Origin: Candidatus Eiseniibacteriota bacterium
GTDB lineage: Bacteria > Eisenbacteria > RBG-16-71-46
Direction of reading: 5' to 3'
NCBI GenBank assembly: GCA_038231135.1
Contig: JBBRLX010000006.1
Coordinates: 64,001-128,000 of the forward strand
Length of the DNA: 64,000 bases
Position numbers and translations under genes: made by a program. Positions 10,160-57,043 of the stretch are shown piece after piece. The stretch's first letter is position 1; the number at the start of each line of letters is the position of its first letter. The notes under the pieces are model-generated. The model made no database searches and had not been told where the DNA came from. It saw only the letters and a list, made by a program, of their open reading frames with translations.

Positions 10160-10277
10160 GGCGGCGGGCCCGTCGGAAGTGAAAGGGGATGGAGATGGTG
10201 ATGGCGCTCGAGAACCGAGATGACACTTGCGGCATGAGCCGCAAACCGACCGGCTAGGCTACAGTATCCGTCTGTGC

Positions 10278-10363
10278 GGAGGGATGGCCGAGTGGTTTAA
10301 GGCGCCGGTCTTGAAAACCGGAGGACGAAAGTCCCGTGGGTTCGAATCCTACTCCCTCCGCCA
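10278..10363 (+). tRNA. tRNA-Ser (anticodon TGA)
   Basis: GGAGGGA acceptor pairs with TCCCTCC; anticodon loop CTTGAAA; long variable arm; GGTTCGAATCC; encoded CCA. Confidence 0.97.
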
Positions 10364-10690
10364 CTCTCTCTCGGCGATTCGTGGGGCGCCCCAGGACCAA
10401 AGGCGAAGCCTGATCCCTCAACCCCTCGAGGAACCAGGCTCGCCTCCCCACCGTGGATCCGTGTCGCCTCCAACGAGCGGCTCTAAGTGGCGAGCGTCCT
10501 GAAGGGCGATCACAAGATCGGCAGGATATCTGTTGCTCTGGCTGGTGATGTCGTTTGCCCGATCACCGGCGAGCACAGTTAGATGCACGCGTGGGCAGTC
10601 GATTCATGGATTTCTTCGGGTCCTTCCGGCTTGGATCGGCGCGCGCAGCGTTCCTGGGTGACGCGGGTTCGGACGCGCGGAAATGCCCGT

Positions 10691-10719
10691 TTGGACGCGC
10701 GCGGCCGATCGGCTAAAGT
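10691..10719 (+). promoter_or_regulatory. Sigma70-type promoter for the tRNA-Ser(GCT)/tRNA-Arg operon
   Basis: TTGGAC-17 bp-TAAAGT about 95 bp upstream of tRNA-Ser(GCT). Confidence 0.55.
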
Positions 10720-10778
10720 GCTCCGTCGCAAGGCAGATGAGACTGCGGTTCGGTGCCCGCTCCAAGGTCCGTTTCACC

Positions 10779-10802
10779 GGGTTCGAATCCACTCCCTCCG
10801 CC
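10779..10802 (+). repeat. Direct repeat of the tRNA-Ser(TGA) 3' end (att-like scar or tRNA pseudogene)
   Basis: GGGTTCGAATCC-ACTCCCTCCGCC versus GGGTTCGAATCCTACTCCCTCCGCC at 10338-10362; one-base deletion. Confidence 0.85.
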
Positions 10803-10813
10803 GCACAGATTTT

Positions 10814-10905
10814 GGAGAGGTGGCCGAGTGGCTGAAGGCATCCGCCTGCTAAGCGGTTGATCGGGTAAAACTGATCCGGAGGTTCGAATCCTCTCCTCTC
10901 CGCCA
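10814..10905 (+). tRNA. tRNA-Ser (anticodon GCT)
   Basis: GGAGAGG/CCTCTCC acceptor; CTGCTAA anticodon loop; long variable arm; TTCGAATCC; CCA. Confidence 0.97.
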
Positions 10906-10957
10906 GACCCGTCGAACCTGCTCGGCCGCCCCCAGGCCCGCAGCCCCGTTTCAAGGC

Positions 10958-11034
10958 GCGCCCTTAGCTCAATTGGATAGAGCATCTGACTACGGATCAG
11001 AAGGTTGGGGGTTCAAATCCTCCAGGGCGCACCA
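10958..11034 (+). tRNA. tRNA-Arg (anticodon ACG)
   Basis: GCGCCCT/AGGGCGC acceptor; TCTGA-CTACGGA-TCAGA anticodon arm; GGTTCAAATCC; CCA. Confidence 0.97.
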
Positions 11035-42421: not shown

Positions 42422-42988
42422 GTCCACGCTCCTGAGGCACCGTCCATGGCACGGTGAACTTTGGATGGGAATACAAAACGGCACGCGCGGCGTTGCCCTG
42501 TAGTTGAACAAAGCGGTCGCCGCGTTCGATACCTGCGAGGTCTCTACAAAGCCGTCAACGCAACTTCCGTACCCTGGGGTCCGGACCGCGGACGCGACGG
42601 CTGCCAAGCAATTTGCCCGGGTTTCCTCTCGGGAAACCTTTGGAAATCCGGAGGAATCGTCGAGATTCACGACAATTGCGCTGGGTAGTCATGCGATTTG
42701 AGTGCAGTCTGGCCAGGGTTCAATTGGGTCTGTGGCAGTTCGCCACAGTCGCATCCGGAGTCCCCCGGATCGGCGGGGGAGGGAGTCCACCCCGGCTGGG
42801 GGAATTCACCCGTCGCTTGCGCCATGAGGCACGGGTCCCGTACCGCGATGACGCGCGCCGGCCGCGGCTCACGGGACAAATCGGGCCGTGGAGTGATGTA
42901 TGATCGTGTCCGAATCGGAAGCATAATCGTGACCCCTCGAGCGCCAGCGCGAGCCGGGCGATCATGGCCGCTGGGAGCTCCCACATTC

Positions 42989-44353
42989 ATGCCGGTGCAT
43001 TTCGCTGAAGACGATGCCGGTGCGGCGCCGCGGCGGTTCGCGCAACGCGTAATGCTGCTCGGGGTCGTGGTGGTGTCGGCGCTCGCACTCGCGATCCCGC
43101 GATTCCACAACGACACGGCCGGCCCCGGTCCCGATCTGCGGGGCATCCAGGTCGCACCCGCGCCCGTGGGGACGCTCGGTAGGATGGCCCCCGACAGCGC
43201 CGTCGTGATCGTCTATGGCGACAGCCGCACCGGGCATCGGGTGCTGACGCAACGATCGGGCGCCCGGATGCTGTACGAGGCGGCGCAATCGCATCGTCCG
43301 TCGATGTGGCTCGCCGGGCTCGAGAATCTGCCGGCGACGGCGCTCGAGGTCGTGTACCCGGACTTCATGGGTTTGCGCGACGTGTGGTCCACGTTCGTCA
43401 GCCATCGATTCACAGGCGGCAATCAGCCGGGCGTGCTCCGCGCGCTCGAGGCCAACACAGCGGTCGATTTGATCGTGAACACCGGCGACCTGGTGGAGGA
43501 CGGCCGGCAGCACGTGCAGTGGGAGGAGTTCGCCGGGTCCCATGCGGCGTTGCGCAACCTCGCGCCGTTCGTCGCCGCCCCCGGCAACCACGAGGCGCTG
43601 TGGAAGGCCGCGGCGCGGCGGAACTGGGACGCGATCATGGGGCCGCCGCGCGCGCCATTCAGCTACTGGTCGTCCGTGGCCCTCGGTCGGCTGGCGCGGT
43701 TCGTCATCCTCGACAGCAACCTGTTCACGGATCCTCACGACCACTATCCGCCGGCGCTCGAGCAGGCGCTCGTCGACGAACAGCTCGCGTGGGCCGACTC
43801 CATGCTCGCCGGTCCCGAGCGGTTCAAGTTCGTGGTGCTGCATCATCCGCTGGTCACATCGGGGCACCACTGGGACGAATGGACATCGCAGGACGAGCAC
43901 CCGGCCCAGGACCGCCGCATCCAGCTGCTCGAGATCCTGAGGCGCCGCCACGTCACCGCGGTGCTCGCGGGCCACGAACACCTGTTTCAGCGGAGCTGGA
44001 TCTCGGAGCCCGGCGGCGGCGGATTGTGGCACATCACCACCGGCGGTGGGGGATCGCCGCTGCACTATGTGACCGACGACGATCGCCGGCGGGCCCGGAC
44101 GCAGTCGCTGCCGGACTCGGCGGCGATCGGCGAGATGTTCCCCGAGCAGTCGGTCTACCACTATTGCCGGCTCGTGCTGCGGCCGGATCCCGCGCCCGGC
44201 ATGGCGGCCGCCGAGTTGCGCATCTACCGGGTCGACAGCGCCGGCGCGGCACGGTTGATCGACACCGTGGATCTCGCGTCGCCGCCGGGCGGGCCGGCGG
44301 TGAGCGCCGCCGATCATTCCCCTTTACGCAGGCGGAGTCCGGGCCTACCGTAA
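42989..44353 (+). CDS. Exported calcineurin-like metallophosphoesterase (purple acid phosphatase-like)
   Basis: GDSR, NTGDLV, GNHE, LHHP and GHEH motifs plus an N-terminal hydrophobic segment. Start uncertain. Confidence 0.88.
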   Translation: MPVHFAEDDAGAAPRRFAQRVMLLGVVVVSALALAIPRFHNDTAGPGPDLRGIQVAPAPVGTLGRMAPDSAVVIVYGDSRTGHRVLTQRSGARMLYEAAQSHRPSMWLAGLENLPATALEVVYPDFMGLRDVWSTFVSHRFTGGNQPGVLRALEANTAVDLIVNTGDLVEDGRQHVQWEEFAGSHAALRNLAPFVAAPGNHEALWKAAARRNWDAIMGPPRAPFSYWSSVALGRLARFVILDSNLFTDPHDHYPPALEQALVDEQLAWADSMLAGPERFKFVVLHHPLVTSGHHWDEWTSQDEHPAQDRRIQLLEILRRRHVTAVLAGHEHLFQRSWISEPGGGGLWHITTGGGGSPLHYVTDDDRRRARTQSLPDSAAIGEMFPEQSVYHYCRLVLRPDPAPGMAAAELRIYRVDSAGAARLIDTVDLASPPGGPAVSAADHSPLRRRSPGLP

Positions 44354-44371
44354 TGGGAGTGGTGCGCCGCC

Positions 44372-45163
44372 ATGGCGCGCCGATCGGGTGCAGGGCCGGA
44401 CCGGGTCCCACGTTCCTCGACCGGGTTCGGAGTGGCAGTGACCGCACGCATCCCATTGTTCGAATTCATGCCGTACGGAGCACCCGAGCTGCATGAGGCG
44501 TCGCACCGCCACATGTTCCGCGCGCTGGCCGCCGCGAGTCTCGTGTGGGTCTTTGTGTTCGCGGCGGGCGTGATGACCGGCGCCCTGCCCGCGCCGGCGA
44601 CTCGTTTCGTGACACCGACGGTCGAAGTGCTGCTCGCTCCACCGCCGCCCATGCTGCCGCCACCGCCGGCCCGGACCCAGCCGATCGCGCCCGCGACCTT
44701 GTCGCGTGCGCACGGCGCCATCATCCCGGTGATCGACGAGCCGCCACCGCCGCCTTTGGCTCCGGACTGGCCGGGTGGCATCCGCGATGCGCAGGGCCTG
44801 CTGGGCGGCGAAGCCGGCGACGCGCCGCCCGTCACCGATCGCGGCGTCGTGGCCGAGCCGCCGCTGCCGAATCTTGGCGACAAGGTGCGCACCGACGAGC
44901 TGCCGGTCCTCGTCACCCTCAACCAGCCCGAGTATCCGGACATCGCGCGCGAAGCCGGCGTAGAGGGTCTCGTCGTCGTCCACGTGCTCGTCGGCCGGGA
45001 CGGTCGCGTGATCGACGCGCGGCTCGACGCGAAATTCTCGGTGCCGATGCTCGACGCCACGGCGCTGGCGTCCGCGCGCAAGCTGGTGTTCCAGCCCGCG
45101 ATCGTGGACCACCATCCGGTGGCGGTGTGGGTCGAAATGCCGTACCGGTTTCACCTGCATTGA
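44372..45163 (+). CDS. Energy transducer TonB-like protein
   Basis: TM anchor; Pro-rich linker; PEYPDIAREAGVEGLV...DGRV...F.PA TonB_C domain. Confidence 0.88.
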   Translation: MARRSGAGPDRVPRSSTGFGVAVTARIPLFEFMPYGAPELHEASHRHMFRALAAASLVWVFVFAAGVMTGALPAPATRFVTPTVEVLLAPPPPMLPPPPARTQPIAPATLSRAHGAIIPVIDEPPPPPLAPDWPGGIRDAQGLLGGEAGDAPPVTDRGVVAEPPLPNLGDKVRTDELPVLVTLNQPEYPDIAREAGVEGLVVVHVLVGRDGRVIDARLDAKFSVPMLDATALASARKLVFQPAIVDHHPVAVWVEMPYRFHLH

Positions 45164-45165
45164 GT

Positions 45166-45203
45166 GACCGCCGGCCGCGCGACCCCTTCGCGCGGCCGCG
45201 GTC
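45166..45203 (+). terminator. GC-rich stem-loop after the TonB-like gene
   Basis: CGGCCGCGCGA-CCCCT-TCGCGCGGCCG perfect 11-bp stem, extendable by GACCG/CGGTC; no U-tract. Confidence 0.5.
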
Positions 45204-45395
45204 CCGGAGCGTCCGACCCGGGTGCGGCAGGGGTTCGATGCCGCTGCACATCGTGTCGGGCGCGTTCGCCATCCCGTCCCACAACACTCCCGGTTGAAGT
45301 TTCTTCCACTCGGGAAACGCTGGTTGGGATGCGGCTCGCGCCGTCCCTCATCGCCAAGTTCTTAAGGCGAAGCGACTTAATAACTCCCACCGACG

Positions 45396-45412
45396 CTGGC
45401 ACCAAAGTCGCC
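45396..45412 (+). promoter_or_regulatory. Candidate sigma54 (-24/-12) promoter
   Basis: CTGGCACCAAAGTCGC has GG-N10-GC spacing with a TGGCAC core, about 115 bp upstream of ATG 45526. Confidence 0.45.
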
Positions 45413-45525
45413 TAGACCATGCCGACTGCAATCACCGCAGCATGGTCGAACCCATGCCACCGGCCGGAAGTTCGCGTCGTTAACAGCCAGACACGACCGA
45501 CTTCACATCGAACGGACAAACTGCC

Positions 45526-46908
45526 ATGAATGCCATCGCACTCGCGATCCTGCTGCTGTCCGTGTCCGTGTCCCCCGTCGGCGCTGCCGCGCCTGCGGAT
45601 TCGGACCGAGTGTCCGACCGCGCGAGCGCACCGCCGATTGCGGAGAACGCGGACAGCCTCGCAGCGTCCTATGCAGCGCCCTGGAATCCGCCGCGGCCCC
45701 TGCTCGCGCGCCGGCCGTGGGAGCGGGCGATGCTGTTGCCCGGGCGCATCATTTCGCTGCCGCTATCGGGCCTGGGATACCTCACGCGGCGCTCCATGCT
45801 CGTGATCGAGGACAGCGGCCGGGTGCCGATGGGCCCGCAGCCGCCGCGCGCGAAGCACTCGCCGTCCGTGGCGGTCGGATTGTCCCACTTCGGCGATCGC
45901 ACGGGCGTAGGGCTGTCGCTGGAGCTGCGCACCCCGGAGCCGCGCCGCGAGTTCGTGCCACGATTCGGCGTCCAGTACTCAGCCACGACGCATTTTTATA
46001 ACCGCACGCAGGCCACGCTGACGAGCGGCCCCGCGAGCCTTCAGTATGCATATGAGTGGCGCCCGCAGGAGCAATTCCATGGCATCGGTCTCGAGAGCGC
46101 CGAGGACAGCCTGTCCGACTATGCCATCGAGTTCGAGACGGCGCGCGCGGGACTCACCAGAGCCTGGGGCCGGGACCCGGATCGCAATCAGCCCCGGCTG
46201 ACCCTCAATGCGTGGGGCGGCCCGCGCAGCGCCCTCACCAGCACCGGCCGCGACGCCAGGCAGGTGCCGTTCGACCGCCGCTTCCCCGGGCTGGCCGGGC
46301 TCACGCTCGGACGGCGCGTCGAGCACCTGACCTACGGCGCCGCGATCAAGCTCGACGAACGTCGGGGCGCTCCCCACTGGAGCCGCGGCGGCGCGCTGAC
46401 GCTGGCGGCGGAGAACTTCACGGACCCGGTGCGCGCGCTGGCGCTCCACGATGCCGCCGCGACCGGAGCGGGGTTCCGCCGCTTCACCGGCCAGCTCGAC
46501 GTGGGCACCTCGTTCATGCGCGACCCGCGCTCCCTGCGGCTGATGGCGAAGGTCGTCGATCAGCAGGTCGACGCGCGCGCGGACCGGTTCCTGGTGGCCG
46601 ATCTGGCCACGCTCGGCGGCCGCGACGGACTGCTGGGTTACTCGCCAGGACGGTTTCGTGACAAGGACCTGCTGCTCACGCGGCTGACGTATGTGTTCCC
46701 GCTCGCGCGGCGGTTCGAAGTCGATCTGCATTCTGAGTTCGGCGGGGTCTATGGCGACGTGTGGCACGACGTCCGGATCGGCGGGCTCAAACACTCGTTC
46801 GGCATGTCACTGAGGGGACGCGGGGATCGCACTGCGCGCGGGGCGGTCGGATTCGACATCAGCCCCGAATCGATCCGGATCAACTACACACTGGGGGTGC
46901 CGGAATGA
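45526..46908 (+). CDS. Omp85/BamA-TamA-like outer membrane beta-barrel protein (no obvious POTRA)
   Basis: Signal peptide; amphipathic strands; LGGRDGLLGYSPGRFRD (cf. LGG...LRGY...RF loop-6 motif); terminal INYTLG strand. Confidence 0.78.
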   Translation: MNAIALAILLLSVSVSPVGAAAPADSDRVSDRASAPPIAENADSLAASYAAPWNPPRPLLARRPWERAMLLPGRIISLPLSGLGYLTRRSMLVIEDSGRVPMGPQPPRAKHSPSVAVGLSHFGDRTGVGLSLELRTPEPRREFVPRFGVQYSATTHFYNRTQATLTSGPASLQYAYEWRPQEQFHGIGLESAEDSLSDYAIEFETARAGLTRAWGRDPDRNQPRLTLNAWGGPRSALTSTGRDARQVPFDRRFPGLAGLTLGRRVEHLTYGAAIKLDERRGAPHWSRGGALTLAAENFTDPVRALALHDAAATGAGFRRFTGQLDVGTSFMRDPRSLRLMAKVVDQQVDARADRFLVADLATLGGRDGLLGYSPGRFRDKDLLLTRLTYVFPLARRFEVDLHSEFGGVYGDVWHDVRIGGLKHSFGMSLRGRGDRTARGAVGFDISPESIRINYTLGVPE

Positions 46909-48299
46909 GCCGCTCGATCGCAGGCGTGATGCTGGCAGTGCTCCTCGCCGGCACGGGTGCCGCGGGCGCGATCGCACGGGCGGCCGATACGACGAAGGAG
47001 CACGCCACGGCACCGGGCGCCGCGGCCGCGCGTGATTCGGGCTCGGCCAGGCATGCCGGCCCCGAGCCACATCCCTATTCCTATGCCTACGACATACTCG
47101 ACAACAGTTTCGTGCGACCGGCCACCCGGGTGCTCGACGTGGCACTGCTGGCGCGCAAGCTGACCGGCAATCTCCGCGAGGCGGCGAACATCGACGACCA
47201 GGACCAGGTGCGGCTGCCGAGCACCTGGTGGCAGCCGCGCCTGGGGTTCCGCCCGGTGACGGTCGCGCAGATGCTCACCGGCCCGGGGCCCGGCACCGGT
47301 CCCGCCCCCGGCAAGTGGACGGTGACGAAGGCCAAGGACCAGGGCGTGACGCCGGGATTCCAGATCGAGGATTCACACGGGGACAAGTTCCTGCTCAAAT
47401 TCGATCCCGTGGGATGGCCCGACCTCGCGTCCGGCGCCGCCGTGATCGGCAGCCGCCTCATGTGGGCGGCCGGCTACAACGTGCCCGACGACGCGATCGG
47501 GCAGTTCCGCCCCGAGGATCTCGAGATCAAGCGGGGCGCGACCTACACCGACGCCAACCGCCGCAAACAGCCGATCAACGACGCGTACATCCAGCAACTC
47601 CTCGCGCGGGTCGCGCGTCAGCAGGACGGCAGCTACCGCTGCATCGCGAGCCGGATGCTCGATGGCAAGCCGCTCGGGCCGTTCGAATATCATGGCCGCC
47701 AGCGCGACGATCCCGAGGACCGGATTCCGCACGAGCTGCGGCGTGAGCTGCGGGGGCTGTGGACGGTGTGCGCGTGGCTCAATCACGCGGACAGCCGCGG
47801 CCCGAATACGCTCGACATGTGGGTCACCGATCACGGCCGGTCGTTCGTACGCCACAACCTGATCGACTTCAGCGCCATCCTCGGCGCCGGTGCGACCGGC
47901 AAGCGGGCGTACGCCACCGGGACGGAGTACTATGTCGACTTCGGCGTGATGCGCCGGGAGTTGACGACCCTGGGGCTGCGGCCCTTCGCCTGGGAATCCT
48001 CGGTGGATCCAAACATGAAGGCAGTCGGGTTCGTGGAGTCCGCGACGTTCGATCCCGTCGGGTGGCGGCCCGACTATCCCAACCCCGCGTTCGACGCGCG
48101 CACCGAGCGCGACATTCGCTGGGGCGCCCGGATCGTGGCGGGCTTCACGGATGACCACATTCGTGCCGCCGTCGACGCCGCGAAGTATTCCGATCCGCGT
48201 GCGGCCGCGTACATCACCCGCGTGCTGATCGAGCGCCGCGACAAGCTGGTGCGGCGGTGGCTCGGCGCGGAGGCCGCTCGACTGCAGGCTGGCCGATGA
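46905..48299 (+). CDS. Exported atypical protein-kinase-like fold protein
   Basis: ATG overlaps the barrel-gene stop; signal peptide; GVTPGF...FLLKFD; WLNHADSRGPN (HxDxxxxN); LIDF. Confidence 0.75.
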   Translation: MSRSIAGVMLAVLLAGTGAAGAIARAADTTKEHATAPGAAAARDSGSARHAGPEPHPYSYAYDILDNSFVRPATRVLDVALLARKLTGNLREAANIDDQDQVRLPSTWWQPRLGFRPVTVAQMLTGPGPGTGPAPGKWTVTKAKDQGVTPGFQIEDSHGDKFLLKFDPVGWPDLASGAAVIGSRLMWAAGYNVPDDAIGQFRPEDLEIKRGATYTDANRRKQPINDAYIQQLLARVARQQDGSYRCIASRMLDGKPLGPFEYHGRQRDDPEDRIPHELRRELRGLWTVCAWLNHADSRGPNTLDMWVTDHGRSFVRHNLIDFSAILGAGATGKRAYATGTEYYVDFGVMRRELTTLGLRPFAWESSVDPNMKAVGFVESATFDPVGWRPDYPNPAFDARTERDIRWGARIVAGFTDDHIRAAVDAAKYSDPRAAAYITRVLIERRDKLVRRWLGAEAARLQAGR

Positions 48300-49831
48300 G
48301 GCGAGCCGCCACCGTCGCGATGCTGCTGATGCTGGTGGATGGGTGTTCGCATATGGGCCGGCTGCGGTATCAGCCGCAGACGGTATCGCCCACGCTCACG
48401 CACAAGGCCGGCGAGGCGCCGCCGGCGAATCCCGCGGCCATGCAGCTCCAGCCGCTGTTCGGCGACACGCTGATCGGGCTCGTGCCCGGCACGGCGGATT
48501 CCTCGCGGCGCTACCTGGGCCGGCTGCACACCGGATTCACCGCCGACACGCTCAACCTCATGCTGTTCGGAGACAATCGCCCCGGCTGGCGCGCGTCGCG
48601 GCTGAGCACCGAATACACCGCGCTACGGGAGATGTTTTCGCCGAACCTCGCGAAGATTGGCCGCGGGCTCGTGACGATTCCGTGGGCGCTGGTGAAGGGG
48701 CTCTATCCGGACCTGGCGCTGATCCGCGACATTCCCGACCGCCTTCGCAAGGCTCCGACCGCGGGTCGCGAACGGCAGGTGGTGAGCGCGATGCTGGCCA
48801 AGATCGATTCGCTGCAGGCGCACGGCCAGTCGGTGGCGGCGGTGCTCAACACCGGCGACCTGGTGTACGACGGCCGTTACCCGTCGACGTGGGAGCGGTT
48901 CCTGCGCATTACCCGCCCGCTGTCGTCGCGGGTGCCCTACTTCCCGGTGGCCGGCAACCACGAGCGTACGGACACCGAGGACGGCCGCGAGAACTGGCGC
49001 ACCGCGACCGGGCTGCCCGTCGGCGGCGACCGGCTCTACTACTGCTTCGACACCGCGGACGGCTGGCTGCGCGTCATTGCGCTCGATTCGAATCCGATCG
49101 TCGATCCCGGCAACCTCTGGACCCGCGAGGTGCAGATCAAGTATTCCGCCGAGGAGTTCGCGTGGCTGACGGAGCGCGTGAAGGAGCATCGTGGCCCGGT
49201 GATCGTGTTCATGCACCACCCGCCATTCTCGGCCGGCTTCCATCGCGTCGAATGGCAGCGCGACTCGGTGCTGTCGAAGCGCCGCGAGACCATGGTGGAG
49301 GACCTGCACAAGTCCGGCATCTCGATCATCGCCGGCGGCCACGAACACGCGTACGAACGCGCCCTGCTGCGGTGGCCGGACGCGGTGCTGATCGCGATCG
49401 TCTCCGGGGGCGCCGGCGCCCCGCTCTACCCGCTGCCGCCACGGGCGGAGGCCGCGCGGGTGATGAGCGAATACCACGTCGCGGGCTCGACGGTGCAGCC
49501 GGCAGACGTGTTCACCGCCCAGGCATTCCACTTCATCCATCTGCGGTTCTGGTTCGGCGGCGGCGAGTTCTACACCTACGCCGTGGATGACAAGGCGAAG
49601 GCCACGCTGATCGACAAGGTGCAGATCGACCTGTCGCGCTACGGCACGCCCAAGATCGACCAGTTCAAAATTCCGATCCCGCCGGCGAAGGGCCAGACGA
49701 GCGCGTCCGAGGCCACGGAGGAGAAGAAGAACCAGACCGTCCACCCGGTGACGAAGGCGGATTCGACCGCGAGCAAGCGTCTGCTGTCGAAACCGGCGCC
49801 CGCCAGGAAGACGACCAGGCGCAAACCCTGA
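48296..49831 (+). CDS. Lipoprotein-like calcineurin-type metallophosphoesterase
   Basis: MRRAATVAMLLMLVDG-C; GDNR, NTGDLV, GNHE, MHHP and GHEH motifs. Confidence 0.9.
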   Translation: MRRAATVAMLLMLVDGCSHMGRLRYQPQTVSPTLTHKAGEAPPANPAAMQLQPLFGDTLIGLVPGTADSSRRYLGRLHTGFTADTLNLMLFGDNRPGWRASRLSTEYTALREMFSPNLAKIGRGLVTIPWALVKGLYPDLALIRDIPDRLRKAPTAGRERQVVSAMLAKIDSLQAHGQSVAAVLNTGDLVYDGRYPSTWERFLRITRPLSSRVPYFPVAGNHERTDTEDGRENWRTATGLPVGGDRLYYCFDTADGWLRVIALDSNPIVDPGNLWTREVQIKYSAEEFAWLTERVKEHRGPVIVFMHHPPFSAGFHRVEWQRDSVLSKRRETMVEDLHKSGISIIAGGHEHAYERALLRWPDAVLIAIVSGGAGAPLYPLPPRAEAARVMSEYHVAGSTVQPADVFTAQAFHFIHLRFWFGGGEFYTYAVDDKAKATLIDKVQIDLSRYGTPKIDQFKIPIPPAKGQTSASEATEEKKNQTVHPVTKADSTASKRLLSKPAPARKTTRRKP

Positions 49832-49872
49832 GCCCGCACGGCATCGTGTCGTCCGGCCGCGGAGGAACGGTC

Positions 49873-51273
49873 ATGAACTCGACAGTGACGGAAGCCACGC
49901 CGGACCCGGTCGCCAGGCGCCCGCTCGACCGGTTCCTCGGCATCTTCGCCGACGTTCGTGGCGGGGAGGCCGGCACCGCGCTGTTGCTGATGCTCAACAT
50001 CTTCCTGCTGCTCGCGGCTTACTACCTGCTCAAGACGATCCGCGAGCCGCTGATCCTCACCGTCGCCGGCGGCGCCGAGGTCAAGAGCTACGCCGCGGCG
50101 GCGATGGCGGCGTTGCTGATCGTGGTCGTGCCGATCTACAGCGCGGTGGCGTCGCGGGTGTCGCGCGTGAAGCTCATCAACGGCGTGACGCTGTTCTTTA
50201 TCGCCTGCCTGATCGCGTTCTTCGCCCTCAGCCGTGCCGGCATCGAGATCGGCATCCCGTTCTTCATCTGGGTGGGCATCTTCAACCTGATGGTGATCGC
50301 CCAGATGTGGGCGTATGCGAACGACGTCTACACCGTCGACCAGGGCAAACGGCTGTTCGCGATCGTCGGATTCGGCGCGTCGCTGGGTGCGATCGCGGGG
50401 TCGTTCGTCACCGGGCAACTGGTGAAGCAGTACGGTCCGTACCCGTTCATGCTCGGCGCCGCCGCGCTGCTCGGCGTGTGCATGCTGCTCACGAACTGGG
50501 TGAACATGCGCGAGCGTCGCGCCCGCGGCGGCGCCCCGACTACCGCGGGTGACCGAGGCGCGACGGAGAACGCCGCGACGGAGAACGCCCCGGCGGCCGG
50601 TGCGGACGGCGCCGTGAAGGGCCGCAGCGGCTTCGCGCTGGTGTTCTCCGACCGTTACCTGCTGCTCATCGCGGTGCTCATGACGGTGTACAACCTCGTG
50701 AACACGAACGGCGAGTACATCCTCGGCAAGACCGTGGTGAACCTGTACACCGCGGCCCACGGCGCCGCGGCTGCGGGGGGCCTCAACGAGAAGAAGGTGA
50801 TCGGCGAGTTCTACGGCAACTTCTTCACGCTCGTGAACATCCTCTCCGCGCTGGTGCAGGCGTTCGTCGTGTCGCGGGTGCTCAAGAAGTTCGGCGTGCG
50901 CGTCGCGCTGCTGGTGCTGCCGATCGTGGCACTGGGCGGCTACGCCACGATGGCATTCATTCCGGTGCTGTGGCTGATCCGCTCCGTCAAGCTGGCGGAG
51001 AACTCGATCGACTATTCGTTGCAGAGCACGACGCGCAACGCCCTCTATCTCCCCACGAGCCGCGAGGCCAAGTACAAGGCGAAGCAGGCCAACGACACGT
51101 TCTTCGTGCGGCTCGGCGACGTCATCTCCGCCGGAGTGGTGTTCGCCGGCACGACCTGGCTGGGATTCGCGCCGCCGCAGTTCGCGCTGGTGAACGTCGG
51201 GCTGATCGTCGTGTGGCTGGTGCTGGCGGTCGCGATCGGCAGGCGGTTCCGCAGCATGGCCGGCACGGCCTGA
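49873..51273 (+). CDS. NTT/TLC (Npt1/Npt2, ATP:ADP antiporter family) nucleotide transporter
   Basis: GGAGG RBS; YYLLKTIRE; WAYANDVY...QGKRLF; KLAENSIDYSL; LYLPTSREAKYKAK..DTFFVRLGD. Confidence 0.93.
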   Translation: MNSTVTEATPDPVARRPLDRFLGIFADVRGGEAGTALLLMLNIFLLLAAYYLLKTIREPLILTVAGGAEVKSYAAAAMAALLIVVVPIYSAVASRVSRVKLINGVTLFFIACLIAFFALSRAGIEIGIPFFIWVGIFNLMVIAQMWAYANDVYTVDQGKRLFAIVGFGASLGAIAGSFVTGQLVKQYGPYPFMLGAAALLGVCMLLTNWVNMRERRARGGAPTTAGDRGATENAATENAPAAGADGAVKGRSGFALVFSDRYLLLIAVLMTVYNLVNTNGEYILGKTVVNLYTAAHGAAAAGGLNEKKVIGEFYGNFFTLVNILSALVQAFVVSRVLKKFGVRVALLVLPIVALGGYATMAFIPVLWLIRSVKLAENSIDYSLQSTTRNALYLPTSREAKYKAKQANDTFFVRLGDVISAGVVFAGTTWLGFAPPQFALVNVGLIVVWLVLAVAIGRRFRSMAGTA

Positions 51274-51337
51274 CGACATCGGTGGCCCGGTCCGGCGTGA
51301 TGCATCCCGCGCCGGCGCCTGGGGCGAGGGAGGCACG

Positions 51338-54055
51338 CTGAAGTTCCTGAACAAGTTCATCCGCCGCCTCGGCCTCGAGCGCGGCGAGGCCACGACGCTC
51401 GGCTTGATGGGCGTGCTCGTGGCCACGCTGATGTGCGCCTACACCATCGCCAAGGTCGTGCGCGACGCGCTGTTCATCACCGAATTCGGCGCGCTCAAGC
51501 TGCCGTATGGCTACATCGGCGTGGCGCTCGCCTCGGCCGGCTTCGTGTGGCTCGAGGGTCAGGTGGCCAGCCGGTTCACGCGCGTCGGCGCCTCGCGCTT
51601 CAACCAGTACGCGGCGATCGCGGTCAGCGCCGCGGCCGCGGCGGCGTTCCCACACGCGCCGCATCGCATCACCGGCGTGTTCTACGTGTGGACCGGCAGC
51701 CAGGCGATGATGCTGCTGCCGCACTTCTGGGTGCTCGCGCTCGACGTGTGGGACTCACGGCGGGCACGGCGGGTGTTCCCGATTCTCGGCGGCTTCGGGC
51801 TGCTCGGCGGCCTGGCCGGCGGCGCGTTCGCGGGCTGGGCGCAGCCGTTCGTGCACCGCATGGGCCTGCTGTGGGTGCTGTTCGGCCTGCTCGTGATCGC
51901 GCACGTGCTCACGCGGTTCGTCGAGGTCCATCGTGCCCACATGCCGGGGCCGGCGGATGCGGTGTCGGCGCTGTCGAGATGGGAGATCATCCGGCGGTCC
52001 AAGTACATCCGGATCTTCGCCGTCGGTCTCGCGCTGTCGGTGATCGTGTCCACGCTGGTCGATTTCCAGTTCAAGCTCTACCTGCAGCACGCCTATCCCG
52101 ATTCGCGCTCGCTCACCCAGTTCCTCGGCCGGTTCTACGTGGGATTGAACGCCGCCGCATTGCTGTTCCAGTTCGGCGTGGCGGGGTGGCTGATGCAACG
52201 GTTCGGACTCGCGGCGTCGACGGGTCTCCAGCCCACCGCGGTCATGGTGTTCGCCACCTGGGCCGCGATCAGCAGCGGCTGGTGGATCGTGATCGCGATG
52301 CGGTGGGTGCAGGGGGTGGTGTTCCAGACCCTCGGCAAGCCCGCGGCGGAGATCTACTACGCGGCCATCCGGCCGATCGAGCGGCGCTCCATCAAGCCCG
52401 CGATCGACACGCTGGTGGAGCGCTGGTCCGATGCCCTGGTGGGCGTGGTACTGGTGGTGGTGCTGCACGCGCTCAAGGCCCCGATGCCGGTGATCGCGAT
52501 CGGCACCGTGGCGCTGTGTGCGATCTGGCTGCTCGTGCTGCTGCGGTTGAACCGGTACTACGGCAAGGCGTTCCAGAACATCCTCAGCGCGCGCTGGATC
52601 GAGCCCGAAGCTTCTCCGGAATCGTTCAAGATTCCATCCGCGCGGCGGGCGCTCCGCGCGGCTCTGCAGTCGCCCGACGAGGCCCAGGTGGTGCTGGCGC
52701 TCAAGCTCAGCCGCAACGCGCGGGATGCCGGCACCGCCGCCGCCGTGCGCGCGTGCCTGGGGCATGCCTCGCCGGGCGTGCAACTGGCCGCCGTCGAGGC
52801 GATGGAGGCGCTGCGACTACGCGATGCCGATGGCGTGATCGAAGGGTTCCTGGGCGCCCGCTACGATCGTCTGCGCCGCGCGGCCGTCAGCTACCTGCTG
52901 TCGCGCAGCAGTCAGCCGGCGGAGCTCGCCGGCCGCCTGCTCGAAGGCGACGACGCGGCGCTGCGCCAGCACGTGCTGGATGTCATGAGCGAGCGCCCGC
53001 AGGAAGCCGAAGGCTGGGTGGCGCCGCAATGGATCGATGCGCGGATCGCCGCCGGCACGCCCGAGGATCTACTGCTGGCGGCGCGGGCGCTCGGCACGAC
53101 CGCCGCGGCCGGGGCGGTGCCCAAGCTGCGCCTGCTGCTGGCGCACGACGACCTCGAGGTCCGGCGCGCGACGTTGCAGGCCGCGGCCCGGCGGCCGCGG
53201 CCCCAGCTGCTCGAGATGCTGCTGCCCCTGCTGCTCGTGCCCGAGCTGAACTACGAGGCGCTCGATGCCGTGGCCGCGATCGGCGACCCCGCGGTGCCCG
53301 CGCTGCAGAAGATGCTCGAGGCCGCTCCGGACTCGCCGTGGCAGCCGATCGCGGCGCGCACGCTGGCGCGCATCGCCACATCCCGCGCCGCGGGCGTGCT
53401 GCAGAAGCTCGCGCGCAGCGGCGATCCGGGCATGCGCCAGGTCGGGTTGGAGTCGCTGGCCCGCATCCGCCTGCGCTCGGGCCAGCCGATGATCCCCCGC
53501 GGCCTCGCGCACCGGTTGTTTCTACGCGAGCTGGGTGACTATCGCGCCTGCCTCGAGCCCACGATCACGCTCGATGCCGTGCCCGCGGCGGAAGTCCGGC
53601 TGCTGTCCGAGAGCTACTGGGAGTCGTCGGAGCTGGCGCTCACGCGTGCGATCGACGCGCTCGCCTGCTGGTACGATCCACGCCCGCTGTTCGGCGTGAT
53701 CGGGCGGCTGACGTCGAAGGACGCCCGGCAGGCGGCGCCCGCGCTCGAATACCTGGGGCACGTGCTGCCGAGAAGCGTGTTCCGATCGGTGAGCCGGATC
53801 TTCGAGACTCAGGCGAGGGAGGACCCCGCCGGTCCGCCCGACGACGCGGCTGTCGCGGCCTGCATCCGGTCGGCGTGGGGCAGCGCCGATGCCTGGTTGC
53901 GCGCCTGCGCCGTGCGCGCGTCCCGCGCGATCCCGGGATTCGACACCGGGCTGTTCGCGGGCGGCGACGAGCATCCCGTGGTGCGTGCGGAGCTCGAGGC
54001 GCTCGCGCACGGCGGTCGCCGTGGAACGGCGCTGCCGGCCGGGGCGGCCGCATGA
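51338..54055 (+). CDS. NTT-family transporter fused to HEAT repeats
   Basis: KVVRDALF, FWVLALDVWDSRRARRVF, LVDFQFK and IKPAIDTLVER motifs, then an alpha-solenoid. Likely CTG start at 51338 after GGGAGG. Confidence 0.9.
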   Translation: MKFLNKFIRRLGLERGEATTLGLMGVLVATLMCAYTIAKVVRDALFITEFGALKLPYGYIGVALASAGFVWLEGQVASRFTRVGASRFNQYAAIAVSAAAAAAFPHAPHRITGVFYVWTGSQAMMLLPHFWVLALDVWDSRRARRVFPILGGFGLLGGLAGGAFAGWAQPFVHRMGLLWVLFGLLVIAHVLTRFVEVHRAHMPGPADAVSALSRWEIIRRSKYIRIFAVGLALSVIVSTLVDFQFKLYLQHAYPDSRSLTQFLGRFYVGLNAAALLFQFGVAGWLMQRFGLAASTGLQPTAVMVFATWAAISSGWWIVIAMRWVQGVVFQTLGKPAAEIYYAAIRPIERRSIKPAIDTLVERWSDALVGVVLVVVLHALKAPMPVIAIGTVALCAIWLLVLLRLNRYYGKAFQNILSARWIEPEASPESFKIPSARRALRAALQSPDEAQVVLALKLSRNARDAGTAAAVRACLGHASPGVQLAAVEAMEALRLRDADGVIEGFLGARYDRLRRAAVSYLLSRSSQPAELAGRLLEGDDAALRQHVLDVMSERPQEAEGWVAPQWIDARIAAGTPEDLLLAARALGTTAAAGAVPKLRLLLAHDDLEVRRATLQAAARRPRPQLLEMLLPLLLVPELNYEALDAVAAIGDPAVPALQKMLEAAPDSPWQPIAARTLARIATSRAAGVLQKLARSGDPGMRQVGLESLARIRLRSGQPMIPRGLAHRLFLRELGDYRACLEPTITLDAVPAAEVRLLSESYWESSELALTRAIDALACWYDPRPLFGVIGRLTSKDARQAAPALEYLGHVLPRSVFRSVSRIFETQAREDPAGPPDDAAVAACIRSAWGSADAWLRACAVRASRAIPGFDTGLFAGGDEHPVVRAELEALAHGGRRGTALPAGAAA

Positions 54056-54747
54056 TCACTCCCGTCGAGCGCGTGCTGATCCTGAAGGGCGCCGATCTGC
54101 TCAAGGACGTCGGTCCGCGCCACCTGCTGCGGCTCGCCGACGTCGCGCGCGAGATCCCGCTGACCAAGGGGGACACGATCTATCGCGAGGACGACCCCGC
54201 CGACGCGCTCTATCTCGTGGTCGAGGGCCGGGTGCGCATCACCGCCGGCGACCGCACGACGTCGGAGGTCGGTCCCGGCGAGGCGTTCGGCACCTGGGCG
54301 CTGGTCGACGATTCGAGCCGCGGGCAGCAGGCGGAGTGCCTCGAGGACGGCATCGCGCTCGCGCTCGGCCGGGACGAGTTCTACGAAGTGGCGGCGGGCG
54401 ATCTGACACTGCTCCAGCAGGTCGTGCGCGTGCTCGCCAAGCGATTGCGCGCGATGGTCTCGGACCGGCCTGGTGAGGCGCGGGTCGAGGGCGAAGGCAT
54501 CGAAAAGCCCGAGGCGAAGGTCGAGGCGGAGCAGGCAGCGGCCGGTGCAGCACCCGCGCCGCAGGGAACGGCCGCTGCGGGTGCGGCGCCCGGGCCCGCG
54601 GTGCCCGTGACGCCGGGTGCCGCGCTGGCGGCGGCGGCGCTCGGCCAGACGGTTCCCGAGGGCGCGTCTCCGGTCGCGGCGGCGCCCGCCGGCTCGAAGG
54701 ATGCGATCGATGAAGCCTACGACCGTCCGAACCCGGACCCGCTGTAG
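54052..54747 (+). CDS. Cyclic nucleotide-binding domain protein
   Basis: ITPVERVLILKGADLL; IYREDD...LYLVVEGRV; GEAFGTWAL; ATGA overlap with the NTT-HEAT gene. Confidence 0.9.
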   Translation: MITPVERVLILKGADLLKDVGPRHLLRLADVAREIPLTKGDTIYREDDPADALYLVVEGRVRITAGDRTTSEVGPGEAFGTWALVDDSSRGQQAECLEDGIALALGRDEFYEVAAGDLTLLQQVVRVLAKRLRAMVSDRPGEARVEGEGIEKPEAKVEAEQAAAGAAPAPQGTAAAGAAPGPAVPVTPGAALAAAALGQTVPEGASPVAAAPAGSKDAIDEAYDRPNPDPL

Positions 54748-54915: not shown

Positions 54916-56817
54916 GTGAAGACCGGTTCGCAGGATCCGAACGAACTCTTCCGCGCCCTCGTCGACGGGGTGCGGGACTACGCGATCTTCATTCTGGATC
55001 CCGCGGGCAACATCGTCACCTGGAACACCGGCGCGGAACGCATCAAGGGCTACCTCGCCCACGAGATCATCGGCAAGCACTTTTCGGTGTTCTACCCGCC
55101 CGATGCGCTGGCGGCCGACTGGCCGGCGACCGAACTGCGCGCCGCCACCAGCGAGGGCCGGTTCGAGGACGAGAACTGGCGCATTCGAAAGGACGGGACG
55201 CGGTTCTGGGCGAACGTCATCATCACCGCGATCCGCAATCCGGCGGGCGAGCTCATTGGGTTTTCCAAGATCACGCGCGACCTGACCGAGCGGATGGAGT
55301 CCGTCGCGGCGCTGCGCGACACGGAGTCGCGGTATCGTGGAATGTTCGAGGGCTCGCGGGACGGGGTGCTGATCGTGAACGCCGTCACGCACCAGATCAT
55401 CGACGCCAATCCGGCAATCGCCGTGCTGCTCGGCCGGTCGCGCGAGGAACTGCTCGGCAAGCTGCCGTGGGAGATCGGCCTGTTCCGTGACGAGGACGCG
55501 AACCGGACGGCTCAGCGCATGATGCTCGAGCAGGGCTATGTCCGGCACGACGACGTGGTCCTGTCGCGCGGCGATTCCGATCTCGAAGTCGAGCTGCAGG
55601 GCAACCGCTACGAAGTGGCGGGGCAGCCGGCGATCCAGTACAACGTGCGCGACATCCGCGAGCGCCGCCAGCTGGAGCGCGCCCTGCGGCAGACCGAGTC
55701 AATGGCCGAGGTCAATCGCCGCAAGGACGAGTTCCTCGCGCTGCTGTCGCACGAGCTGCGCAATCCGCTGTCGGCGATCACGAATGCGGTCGAGCTCCAG
55801 CGTATGCAGCCGGAAGCGGGCGGCGTGCCGGGGCAGATCCGCGCGATCATCGAGCGCCAGGTGGGCCGGCTGACGAGCATGGTCGAGGATCTGCTCGAGG
55901 TGTCGCGCATCGCGACGGGACGCCATCGGCTCAATCTCGAGTCCGTGGAGGGACGCGAGCTCGTGGAGCACGCCGTCGAGACCGTGCGCCCCCTGCGGGA
56001 GCAGAAGAATCACACACTGGCGCTGAAGTTGTCCGACGCTCCGATATGGCTCGACGCGGATCCGGTCCGGGTGGAACAGGTCGCGGTGAATCTGCTGACG
56101 AACGCCGTCAAGTACACCCCGACCGGCGGCCACATCGAGGTGTGCTTCGAGATCGAGGACGGCAAAGCGGTGCTGCGGGTGAAGGACAACGGCGTCGGGA
56201 TCACCGCCGATCTGCTGCCGCACATCTTCGAATTGTTCACCCAGGCCGATCGCACCCTGCACCGCTCCGAAGGCGGACTCGGCGTGGGGCTCACCGTCGT
56301 GCAGCGCGTGGTACAGCTCCACGGGGGAACGGTCGAGGCGAACAGCGCCGGCCTGAATCAGGGGGCGGAATTCATCGTGCGCCTGCCGGTCTCGAGCCCG
56401 CAGCACGGCGAGAGGCCGGAGGCCGATCGCGCGTCCGCCACCGGCAGGCGGCGCCTGCGCGTGGTGGTTGTGGACGACAACCGCGATTCCGCGGATACCA
56501 TCGCGATGCTGCTGGAGGGCTCGGGACGCGACGTCCGGGTCGAGTACACGGGGCCGGACGGGCTCGAGACCGTGCGGTCGTTCCGGCCCGATGCCGTGCT
56601 GCTCGACATCGGATTGCCCGGCCTCGACGGCTACGAGGTGGCGCGCGCGATCCGGCGGGACCCGGAGCTGAGCGGGGTCAAGCTCATCGCCGTGAGCGGC
56701 TACGGTCAGGAATCCGATCGCCGGCGGTCGAAGGACGCCGGGTTCGACGTGCACATGGTGAAGCCCGTCGAACCGCAGACGATCGAAGATGCGCTGAACG
56801 CGGTGACCGGGACCTAG
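54916..56817 (+). CDS. PAS-PAS hybrid histidine kinase/response regulator
   Basis: PAS (WNTGAERIKGY, RKDGTRFWA); SHELRNPL; NLLTNAVKYT; GGLGVGL; REC (VVDDN, LLDIGLP). Confidence 0.95.
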   Translation: MKTGSQDPNELFRALVDGVRDYAIFILDPAGNIVTWNTGAERIKGYLAHEIIGKHFSVFYPPDALAADWPATELRAATSEGRFEDENWRIRKDGTRFWANVIITAIRNPAGELIGFSKITRDLTERMESVAALRDTESRYRGMFEGSRDGVLIVNAVTHQIIDANPAIAVLLGRSREELLGKLPWEIGLFRDEDANRTAQRMMLEQGYVRHDDVVLSRGDSDLEVELQGNRYEVAGQPAIQYNVRDIRERRQLERALRQTESMAEVNRRKDEFLALLSHELRNPLSAITNAVELQRMQPEAGGVPGQIRAIIERQVGRLTSMVEDLLEVSRIATGRHRLNLESVEGRELVEHAVETVRPLREQKNHTLALKLSDAPIWLDADPVRVEQVAVNLLTNAVKYTPTGGHIEVCFEIEDGKAVLRVKDNGVGITADLLPHIFELFTQADRTLHRSEGGLGVGLTVVQRVVQLHGGTVEANSAGLNQGAEFIVRLPVSSPQHGERPEADRASATGRRRLRVVVVDDNRDSADTIAMLLEGSGRDVRVEYTGPDGLETVRSFRPDAVLLDIGLPGLDGYEVARAIRRDPELSGVKLIAVSGYGQESDRRRSKDAGFDVHMVKPVEPQTIEDALNAVTGT

Positions 56818-57043
56818 AACCTGACGTCCGGCGCAGCGTCCGGAGCGCGATCGCGAACGAACCCGGTACCCGGCGCGACTTTCGTCCCCCGGTTCCCCGC
56901 GCCCATGCCCCCGCGTCGCCGCACTCGGCCCAGTTATTCCCGGCATGACATCCCCGTGAGACGTGGATGGTGCCATGCGACCTCGCCGCGCAGCATGCTG
57001 GAACCGCGACGCCACCGGTCGCCGCACGATGGAGCCGAATTTC

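What the first reader, a model, noticed from the sequence alone, without database searches (positions are those of the whole stretch)
42989..54747. Candidate extracytoplasmic phosphorylation / nucleotide-trafficking system built around NTT translocases
Seen: eight co-oriented genes, namely exported phosphoesterase, TonB-C, Omp85-like barrel, exported kinase-fold protein, lipoprotein phosphoesterase, NTT, NTT-HEAT and cNMP-binding protein. Barrel, kinase and phosphoesterase are chained by ATGA overlaps, as are NTT-HEAT and cNMP. Known: NTTs exchange ATP/ADP in Chlamydia, Rickettsia and plastids, and NTT-HEAT(-cNMP) homologues of unclear role exist in free-living bacteria. Inference: a periplasmic kinase has no ATP supply, so the NTT may export ATP and reimport ADP to fuel it. 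The phosphoesterases would then reverse the reaction, the barrel export or display substrate, and HEAT/cNMP gate the transporter. The alternative is a nucleotide scavenging and uptake pathway. I know of no characterised system with this composition.
Basis: partly seen in the sequence, partly recalled or inferred. Interest (0 to 1): 0.9.

Follow-up and report, generated by a model that had tools for sequence, protein, structure and literature searches.

The report
Exported kinase operon with nucleotide carriers
Many uncultured bacteria keep, in one gene row, an outer-membrane barrel, a predicted exported kinase, a predicted exported phosphatase and two relatives of ATP/ADP carriers, which likely ship ATP out of the cytoplasm to run phosphorylation in the cell envelope, a compartment long assumed to have no ATP supply of its own.

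Summary
The eight genes are real, but TonB-C is a passenger (1 of 117 related loci). The core is barrel plus kinase (barrel directly upstream in 113 of 116). The kinase model (pLDDT 93) matches CtkA, Fam20C, PI4KII and CotH (Z 12-14). Catalytic residues are conserved, and signal-like N-termini occur in 118 of 120 homologues. In 151 genomes of the host phylum, all 75 with an intact kinase also carry an NTT. The 8 kinase genomes without an NTT carry only catalytically dead copies (one family). In a 121-genome Acidobacteriota sample, 2 of 3 NTT-less kinase genomes are degenerate and 1 is a true exception. Both window NTTs have Asp at the lysine that binds ATP's gamma-phosphate; a published Lys-to-Glu mutant shifts affinity toward ADP-in/ATP-out, but the NAD carrier PamNTT4 also has Asp. 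Against: a second kinase-like family fused to phosphoesterase and barrel occurs in 40 of 101 genomes of another phylum, only 2 with an NTT. cAMP gating is doubtful. Substrate and transport direction are untested. The scan noted this system five times on other DNA. Best reading: NTT-fuelled envelope phosphorylation (0.55).

The parts
42989..44353 (+). Gene A: purple-acid-phosphatase-like metallophosphoesterase with an N-terminal signal or anchor; a second phosphoesterase subtype of the system (start codon uncertain)
   Evidence: PF00149; metal motifs D78, D167, N200/H201, H285/H286, H329/H331 region; 40-48% identical to the phosphoesterases that directly follow the kinase in 5 related loci, but 26% to E
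44372..45163 (+). Gene B: TonB-C energy-transducer protein; passenger, not part of the conserved system
   Evidence: PF03544; present in 1 of 117 related loci, there on the opposite strand; paralogues on four other contigs of the genome
45526..46908 (+). Gene C: Omp85-family outer-membrane barrel without POTRA domains; core partner of the kinase
   Evidence: Family profile hits BamA/TamA, best E 1.4e-13; loop-6 Arg kept in 81 of 108 homologues but Leu370 here; directly upstream of the kinase in 113 of 116 loci
46905..48299 (+). Gene D: predicted exported atypical kinase of the CtkA/Fam20/PI4KII/CotH/HipA fold group; uncatalogued family
   Evidence: AlphaFold pLDDT 93, pTM 0.89; VIA Z 14.1 CtkA, 13.2 Fam20C, 12.2 PI4KII-alpha, 12.1 CotH; K165 127, D296 126, N301 123, D321 125 of 129; 2522 relatives at the 50% level
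48296..49831 (+). Gene E: purple-acid-phosphatase-like metallophosphoesterase, probably a lipoprotein
   Evidence: PF00149; metal ligands invariant in 26 aligned; best solved relatives are purple acid phosphatases, E 3e-17; signal-like N-terminus in 47 of 51 neighbours
49873..51273 (+). Gene F: stand-alone NTT/TLC-family carrier of a non-canonical type
   Evidence: PF03219; profile hits Chlamydia and Arabidopsis NTT1 structures, E 7e-29 and 9e-21; Asp416 at the AtNTT1 K527 position in 44 of 51, Lys in 7
51338..54055 (+). Gene G: NTT-HEAT fusion (CTG start inferred)
   Evidence: PF03219 plus PF13646; Asp at the K527-equivalent position in 29 of 46; architecture described in PMC5381601
54052..54747 (+). 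Gene H: cNMP-binding-fold protein with a degenerate cassette (Thr81 for Glu; Arg90 kept) and a low-complexity tail
   Evidence: PF00027; alignment of 29; fused to NTT-HEAT in L093, L100 and L204

Best explanation
The operon likely encodes an envelope phosphorylation cycle: a predicted exported kinase, likely docked on a POTRA-less Omp85 barrel, would phosphorylate an envelope substrate with ATP that the NTT pair likely exports in exchange for ADP, and predicted exported phosphoesterases would reverse the mark. Shown: the gene set, its conservation, the kinase-type model and catalytic residues, and the link between an intact kinase and NTT presence. Inferred: periplasmic location, barrel-kinase contact, transported substrate and direction. 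My guess for the substrate is something held at or passing through the barrel (an envelope protein or a lipid/glycan head group; the fold neighbours act on all three). The HEAT and cNMP-like parts probably regulate the carrier through protein contact rather than cAMP. TonB-C is not a member.
For: Barrel directly upstream in 113 of 116 loci; NTT in 69, phosphoesterase in 51, HEAT in 46, cNMP in 30 of 117; all five partners in 18. A second barrel-kinase plus NTT-HEAT-cNMP locus exists in the same genome in another arrangement. Kinase fold and residues. Export signals 118 of 120 against 9 of 72 controls. Host phylum, 151 genomes: both 75, kinase only 8, NTT only 9, neither 59. Best kinase in the 75: 72 keep K, D, N/Q, D and 3 are cut by contig ends with visible residues intact. 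All 8 NTT-less genomes hold only copies lacking K165, D296 and N301, still beside a barrel. Acidobacteriota sample: NTT in 20 of 23 kinase genomes against 31 of 98 others; 2 of the 3 exceptions are degenerate. F-type NTTs also sit beside two other exported kinase-like families (L204, L207). PamNTT1 K446E: Km for ADP-in/ATP-out falls from 1401 to 29 uM and for ATP-in/ADP-out rises from 8.6 to 552 uM (PMC2606016 Table 1); F and G carry Asp there.
Against: No transport or kinase assay exists. The same Asp is in the NAD carrier PamNTT4 and other free-living NTTs, and K446E also lowers Vmax for that exchange from 5.5 to 1.6, so the residue does not fix substrate or direction; 7 of 51 kinase-linked NTTs keep Lys. 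AtNTT1 E245 is Gly in 44 of 51. G239, a kinase locus on a 5.3-Mb contig, has an intact kinase and no NTT by three queries. The 8 dead copies are all from one family, perhaps one event. Four NTT-bearing Acidobacteriota best hits lack the beta-3 Lys. A second kinase-like family fused to a barrel occurs in 40 of 101 genomes of the G155 phylum, only 2 of which have an NTT. NTTs occur without this kinase (13 of 13 chosen loci; at least five beside inositol-phosphate synthase). The window kinase has Ala179 where 110 of 129 have Glu/Asp.
Confidence: 0.55

Rival explanations
1. Flux-sensing signal relay: the barrel-kinase pair senses an outside cue, and the NTT-HEAT-cNMP unit is mainly a transceptor that reports nucleotide turnover in the envelope to cytoplasmic two-component, SpoIIE or Ser/Thr kinase partners. 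ATP still crosses, but the product is a signal.
For: A cluster of receiver, histidine-kinase and SpoIIE genes lies in 39 of the 122 surveyed stretches and a Ser/Thr-kinase cluster in up to 21 (before duplicates were dropped). A receiver gene directly follows the cNMP gene in L042, L053, L066 and L104. Dead kinases sit next to a response-regulator gene in L145-L149 (REC-HD_5 confirmed for L145). The window has a PAS-histidine kinase 169 bp after H.
Against: These families are abundant in such genomes and I ran no background control. Orientation and type vary from locus to locus. No fusion to an output domain was seen.
Confidence: 0.17
2. Scavenging: the barrel admits nucleotides, NAD or phosphorylated solutes, the phosphoesterases trim them, the NTTs import the product, and the kinase uses ambient ATP to trap or tag a solute.
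For: F shares the Arg-x-x-Asp motif with PamNTT4, an NAD carrier (PMC5381601). The best solved relative of E's family is a diphosphonucleotide phosphatase. NTTs occur without the kinase. Lig E is a precedent for an exported enzyme thought to use outside ATP (bioRxiv 10.64898/2026.03.22.713542). The fused second family runs without NTT.
Against: It does not explain why NTT loss tracks kinase death. The phosphoesterase is the more dispensable part (51 of 117). Measured outside ATP was 25 nM in that preprint, below Lig E's Km. Omp85 barrels are not known as solute pores (recalled).
Confidence: 0.15
3. Secreted effector: the barrel exports or displays the kinase (two-partner or PlpD-like), which acts on neighbouring cells; the NTTs serve a separate, co-regulated purpose such as taking nucleotides from prey or hosts.
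For: The nearest folds include CtkA, MavQ, HipA and HipT. Barrel and kinase are always paired and are fused in the second family. Heinz and Lithgow raise translocation for patatin- and metallo-Omp85.
Against: The barrel has no POTRA domain. Many kinases carry a lipobox (31 of 118). The family is well conserved across phyla rather than fast-diverging, and no immunity-like small gene recurs. Dead copies are kept beside the barrel.
Confidence: 0.08

Closest known systems
NTT-HEAT(-cNBD) fusions of free-living bacteria (Major, Embley and Williams 2017, PMC5381601; read parts 1-3 of 4 of the text, supplement parts 1-2 and one search)
   Same: G and H have exactly this architecture and adjacency; function stated there as unknown.
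   Different: The parts I read do not mention barrel, kinase or phosphoesterase neighbours and think in terms of uptake or inter-cell ATP transfer.
Class I ATP/ADP+Pi exchangers AtNTT1, PamNTT1, CpNTT1 (PMC2606016 passages and part of Results; PMC3306366 passages; PDB 9j3n, 9j3j)
   Same: Same family and fold by profile match; conserved basic residues in TM1 and the C-terminal half.
   Different: K527/K446 is Asp and E245 is Gly in F; hosts are free-living; proposed direction is outward.
Fam20C/Fam20B secretory-pathway kinases, CotH, CtkA, PI4KII
   Same: Same fold group (Z 12-14) with K, D-x4-N and DF motifs; Fam20C works outside the cytosol on ATP brought in by a carrier (SLC35B1/AXER, recalled).
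   Different: 8-12% identity; TM-scores 0.24-0.38 over the query; bacterial, barrel-paired, substrate unknown.
'noNterm' Omp85 and 'Metallo' Omp85 subfamilies (Heinz and Lithgow 2014, PMC4104836; passages only)
   Same: C is a POTRA-less Omp85. The roughly 1250-aa proteins found here join PF00149-like, kinase-like and barrel domains and match the 'Metallo' description by size and content (my inference).
   Different: That paper treats the metallo domain as a protease and has no occurrence of 'kinase' in its main text. Its middle kinase-like family shows only weak profile similarity to D (probability 11%).
[quoted passage not shown]
   Same: Exported enzyme that needs ATP; the ATP source is called an outstanding question.
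   Different: No dedicated carrier; thought to use outside ATP.

Membership tests
NTT/TLC (AAA) family | PF03219 above the curated cut-off and profile match to solved NTT1 | tested here: met
   F 62 bits, G 29 bits against cut-off 21; E 7e-29 to 9j3n. TIGR00769 cut-off not reached, 55 against 387.
Class I ATP/ADP+Pi exchanger | Lys at AtNTT1 K527 / PamNTT1 K446 | tested here: not met
   An offset of 84 places K155, E245 and K527 on chain K71, E161 and K443 of 9j3j; K443 aligns to Asp416 of F (44 of 51 Asp, 7 Lys) and Asp in G.
Class I ATP/ADP+Pi exchanger | Glu at AtNTT1 E245 | tested here: not met
   Gly135 in F; Gly 44, Asp 7 of 51.
Class I ATP/ADP+Pi exchanger | Lys at AtNTT1 K155 | tested here: inconclusive
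   F Lys71 (42 of 51) aligns to the matching Lys in 9j3n but one turn away in 9j3j.
Class I ATP/ADP+Pi exchanger | Measured ATP/ADP counter-exchange | not testable with these tools
   Needs a transport assay.
PamNTT4-like NAD carriers | Placement in the PamNTT4 clade | not tested
   Shared short motifs seen by eye in the paper's supplement; no tree with reference NTTs was built.
NTT-HEAT(-cNBD) fusions | NTT fused to HEAT repeats, followed by a cNBD gene | tested here: met
cAMP/cGMP-binding domain | Phosphate-binding cassette Glu and Arg (motif recalled) | tested here: not met
   H has Thr81 and Arg90; 6 of 29 keep Glu, none keeps both.
Atypical kinases of the CtkA/Fam20/PI4KII/CotH/HipA group | Kinase-like bilobal fold | tested here: met
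   Fourteen rows at Z 10.0-14.1 are all of this group; next row Z 7.3.
Atypical kinases of the CtkA/Fam20/PI4KII/CotH/HipA group | Beta-3 Lys, catalytic Asp, Mg-binding Asn and Asp | tested here: met
   K165, D296, N301, D321 in D and in 123-127 of 129; roles assigned from motif spacing and secondary structure, not from a superposed alignment.
Fam20C, CotH or HipA as named families | Pfam or sequence-level membership | tested here: not met
   No Pfam or NCBIfam hit; no PDB sequence hit below E 0.09 with the profile; Atlas neighbours Fam20C 0.84 and HipA_2 0.83 are leads only.
Omp85 superfamily, noNterm type | BamA/TamA-like barrel with loop-6 RG(F/Y) motif and no POTRA | tested here: met
   460 aa in all. 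The window copy has Leu for the loop-6 Arg.
Omp85 superfamily, noNterm type | 16-stranded barrel in a model | tested here: inconclusive
   Job sent had not returned.
Calcineurin-like / purple-acid-phosphatase-like phosphoesterases | D, GD, GNH, H and GHxH metal ligands | tested here: met

The most novel reading that the evidence does not exclude
Diverse free-living diderm bacteria run a dedicated periplasmic ATP economy: NTT carriers, the family parasites use to steal ATP, work in reverse to feed Fam20C-like exported kinases docked on an Omp85 barrel, a bacterial counterpart of ER/Golgi lumenal phosphorylation. Where the kinase dies the carriers are lost.
Probability: 0.5. Interest if true: 0.93.

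Novelty: categorically new. Interest (0 to 1): 0.82.

Why it matters
How ATP would cross the bacterial inner membrane outward is stated as unknown in a 2020 review, which adds that Gram-negative bacteria were not known to encode an ATP-ADP translocase homologue (PMC7432876, passages). This operon names candidate exporters and the enzyme that would consume the ATP, and makes the question testable with standard NTT assays. It would also give a role to NTT-HEAT-cNBD proteins and to POTRA-less and 'Metallo' Omp85 barrels, and suggest the ancestral job of the carriers that parasites and plastids use. The dead-kinase lineages supply natural negative controls.

Tried and rejected
TonB-C as a member: rejected (1 of 117). 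D as a named kinase family: no Pfam, NCBIfam or PDB sequence hit. Longer fused forms of D: one hit with an unrelated extension among 7999 candidates of 1069-3050 aa, weak evidence. Homology of D to the barrel-fused second family or to the L204 kinase: profile probabilities 11%, 1.5% and 0.9%, not shown. Reading Asp416 as proof of reversed transport: rejected as proof because PamNTT4 shares it. Promoter and terminator scan: 0 and 4 sites, equal to shuffles. RNA runs: no RNA holder listed. The barrel model had not returned. Literature: no paper held two of 'periplasmic kinase', 'ATP ADP translocase', 'periplasmic ATP', 'secreted kinase'; none held all of 'Omp85', 'kinase domain', 'nucleotide transporter', 'operon'; 'NTT-HEAT' appeared in three of the 15 listed papers (30 held a term); the NTT1 cryo-EM paper was not found. 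The library lacks most subscription journals, so absence from print is not established. PPK2 as a phosphate donor link: only 8 of 117 loci, left as a lead.

Full report
Observation. The eight ORFs, their order and the three ATGA overlaps are as described. Pfam supports the labels for A, B, E, F, G and H; C and D have no family hit. A 362-bp gap splits A-B from C-H. The closest named relatives of D are mostly labelled Ca. Eisenbacteria. The genome holds a second barrel-kinase pair divergent from an NTT-HEAT-cNMP pair on contig C12, and a lone paralogue of E at the start of contig C16.

The kinase. D belongs to a large uncatalogued family: 2522 representatives at E up to 0.001. An AlphaFold model from 129 sequences (pLDDT 93) matches CtkA (Z 14.1, rmsd 3.9, 225 aligned), Fam20C (13.2), Hydra Fam20 (12.9), PI4KII-alpha (12.2), CotH (12.1), actin-fragmin kinase (11.8) and HipA (10.8), with a drop to 7.3 for the next group. 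Foldseek ranks Fam20 first, with weak E-values near 3e-4. K165, D296, N301 and D321 are kept in 127, 126, 123 and 125 of 129; H276, R280 and R283 are invariant. The window copy has Ala179 where most have Glu or Asp. A simple hydrophobicity rule finds a signal-like N-terminus in 118 of 120 homologues (31 with a lipobox) and 47 of 51 phosphoesterases, against 9 of 72 in control families. This is a heuristic that picks the best of several starts, not SignalP.

Neighbourhood. I surveyed the best 80 of at least 569 loci across GTDB (titles include Acidobacteriota, Zixiibacteriota, Calditrichia, Ignavibacteria, Latescibacterota, KSB1, Marinimicrobia, Gemmatimonadota) and 40 loci that I chose for long contigs from the host phylum. 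Three were duplicates and were dropped. Of 117: barrel 114, any NTT 69, stand-alone NTT 54, phosphoesterase 51, HEAT 46, cNMP 30, PPK2 8, TonB 1; all five partners 18; barrel directly upstream 113 of 116. Among the 74 loci of at least 19 kb, NTT 44. Order varies but barrel-kinase-phosphoesterase-NTT-NTT/HEAT-cNMP recurs in distant phyla. Gene A resembles the phosphoesterase subtype that follows the kinase in five loci (40-48%), so it plausibly belongs; TonB does not.

A natural experiment. In 151 genomes of the host phylum, 83 have the kinase and 84 an NTT: both 75, kinase only 8, NTT only 9, neither 59. I checked a top-scoring kinase copy in all 75: 72 keep K, D, N or Q, D, and 3 are cut by contig ends with the visible residues intact. 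All 8 NTT-less genomes (87-97% complete, one family) hold only copies that lack K165, D296 and N301; these still follow a barrel and 7 keep the H-x3-R-x2-R patch. Four genomes of that family have both a live and a dead copy, and have NTTs. A second NTT query was also empty for 7 of the 8 (no positive control in those calls), and PF03219 was empty for the eighth with two positive controls ringing. In 121 genomes of the phylum of G152 (Acidobacteriota by the locus title), 23 have a strong kinase match; 20 have an NTT against 31 of the other 98. Two of the three exceptions are degenerate (G183, G199); G239 is intact and has no NTT. Four of the 20 lack the beta-3 Lys in their best copy. Kin are not independent, so this is about two or three events, not dozens. 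One row in each sample (G015, G203) is an unpublished genome; dropping it changes no conclusion.

The carriers. F and G are NTT-family by Pfam and by profile match to solved NTT1. Mapping the AtNTT1 residues of PMC3306366 on chain 9j3j gives one offset that fits K155, E245 and K527 together. K527, conserved in all ATP/ADP exchangers according to PMC2606016, is Asp in F (44 of 51; Lys in 7, which also have Asp at the E245 site) and in G (29 of 46). They therefore fail the class I test. In PamNTT1 an acidic residue here abolishes Pi transport and moves affinity toward ADP-in/ATP-out, at lower Vmax. That suits a kinase fuel line, where phosphate stays on the substrate. But PamNTT4, an NAD carrier, and other free-living NTTs show the same Asp, so it is compatible, not diagnostic. 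H lacks the cassette Glu and no member of 29 keeps both Glu and Arg, so cyclic-nucleotide gating is doubtful.

Other kinases, and the counter-case. F-type NTTs far from family D sit in L204 beside a signal-bearing PI3/4-kinase-like gene (weak Pfam, E 0.004), a signal-bearing phosphoesterase and NTT-HEAT-cNMP, and in L207 beside a single protein with signal, kinase-like domain and barrel (barrel probability 85.5%). At least five others sit beside inositol-phosphate synthase with no kinase seen. The L207 kinase-like domain occurs in 40 of 101 genomes of the phylum of G155 (locus titled Rhodothermales). Of 20 loci chosen from 49 matches, favouring long ORFs, 17 hold phosphoesterase, kinase-like and barrel domains in one ORF of about 1250 aa (phosphoesterase scores weak, 18-38 bits), with conserved catalytic-type motifs. 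This fusion argues that the three activities work together at the outer membrane. It also cuts against the fuelling model as a general rule: none of the 20 has an NTT nearby and only 2 of the 40 genomes have one. Either that family has another donor or carrier, or exported kinases can run without one.

Comparison and verdict. The parts are known separately: NTT-HEAT-cNBD (PMC5381601), noNterm and Metallo Omp85 (PMC4104836), Fam20/CotH-type kinases (PMC12189002, passages). I found no paper on the combination, within a library that lacks most subscription journals. It works most like lumenal Fam20C fed by an ATP/ADP exchanger, without being a member of either family. Five earlier notes of this scan reach a similar reading on other DNA; they are not independent evidence, and my reading was set before I saw them. 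Confidence in NTT-fuelled envelope phosphorylation 0.55; interest 0.82.

Noticed in passing
G000:C12:79800-85800 (L001 9774-16021): Second copy of the system in the same genome: barrel-kinase divergent from NTT-HEAT and cNMP, without stand-alone NTT or phosphoesterase; a Ser/Thr kinase-TPR gene lies 1.4 kb beyond.
   Followed up: yes
G000:C16:168-1805 (L003): A 64%-identical paralogue of phosphoesterase E at a contig start, followed by a 2852-aa gene; its upstream context is cut off.
   Followed up: partly
L145-L149, L154-L160: A clade of barrel-paired pseudokinases; in L145-L149 a response-regulator gene (REC-HD_5 in L145) converges on the kinase gene.
   Followed up: partly
L236-L250, L254, L255: Roughly 1250-aa phosphoesterase-Omp85 proteins hide an unannotated kinase-like middle domain; no NTT nearby.
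   Followed up: partly
L205, L206, L208, L211, L214: F-type NTT genes beside myo-inositol-1-phosphate synthase and, in several, a cis-prenyltransferase; a different conserved context, perhaps lipid head-group synthesis.
   Followed up: no
L041, L050, L087, L094, L128, L140, L144, L151: Polyphosphate kinase 2 near the operon in 8 of 117 loci.
   Followed up: no
L042, L046, L053, L096, L107, L116, L124: A second NTT subtype with Lys at the K527 site and Asp at the E245 site is linked to the same kinase family.
   Followed up: partly
L197-L202, L221-L223: Shorter (about 350-420 aa) distant relatives of the kinase in Acidobacteriota, without Pfam hits and without a barrel in the fetched flanks.
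   Followed up: no
window 36917-42670 (-): 1917-aa secreted protein with beta-helix, many Ig-like repeats, two CBM_4_9 domains and an FlgD/T9SS-like tail, divergent from gene A.
   Followed up: no
window 54916-56817 (+) and 56963-59374 (+): PAS-PAS histidine kinase-receiver hybrid 169 bp after H, then a DUF5916 protein.
   Followed up: no
window about 10200-11000: ORF translations there read like tRNA sequence and GC dips to 0.635, suggesting tRNA genes; not scanned.
   Followed up: no
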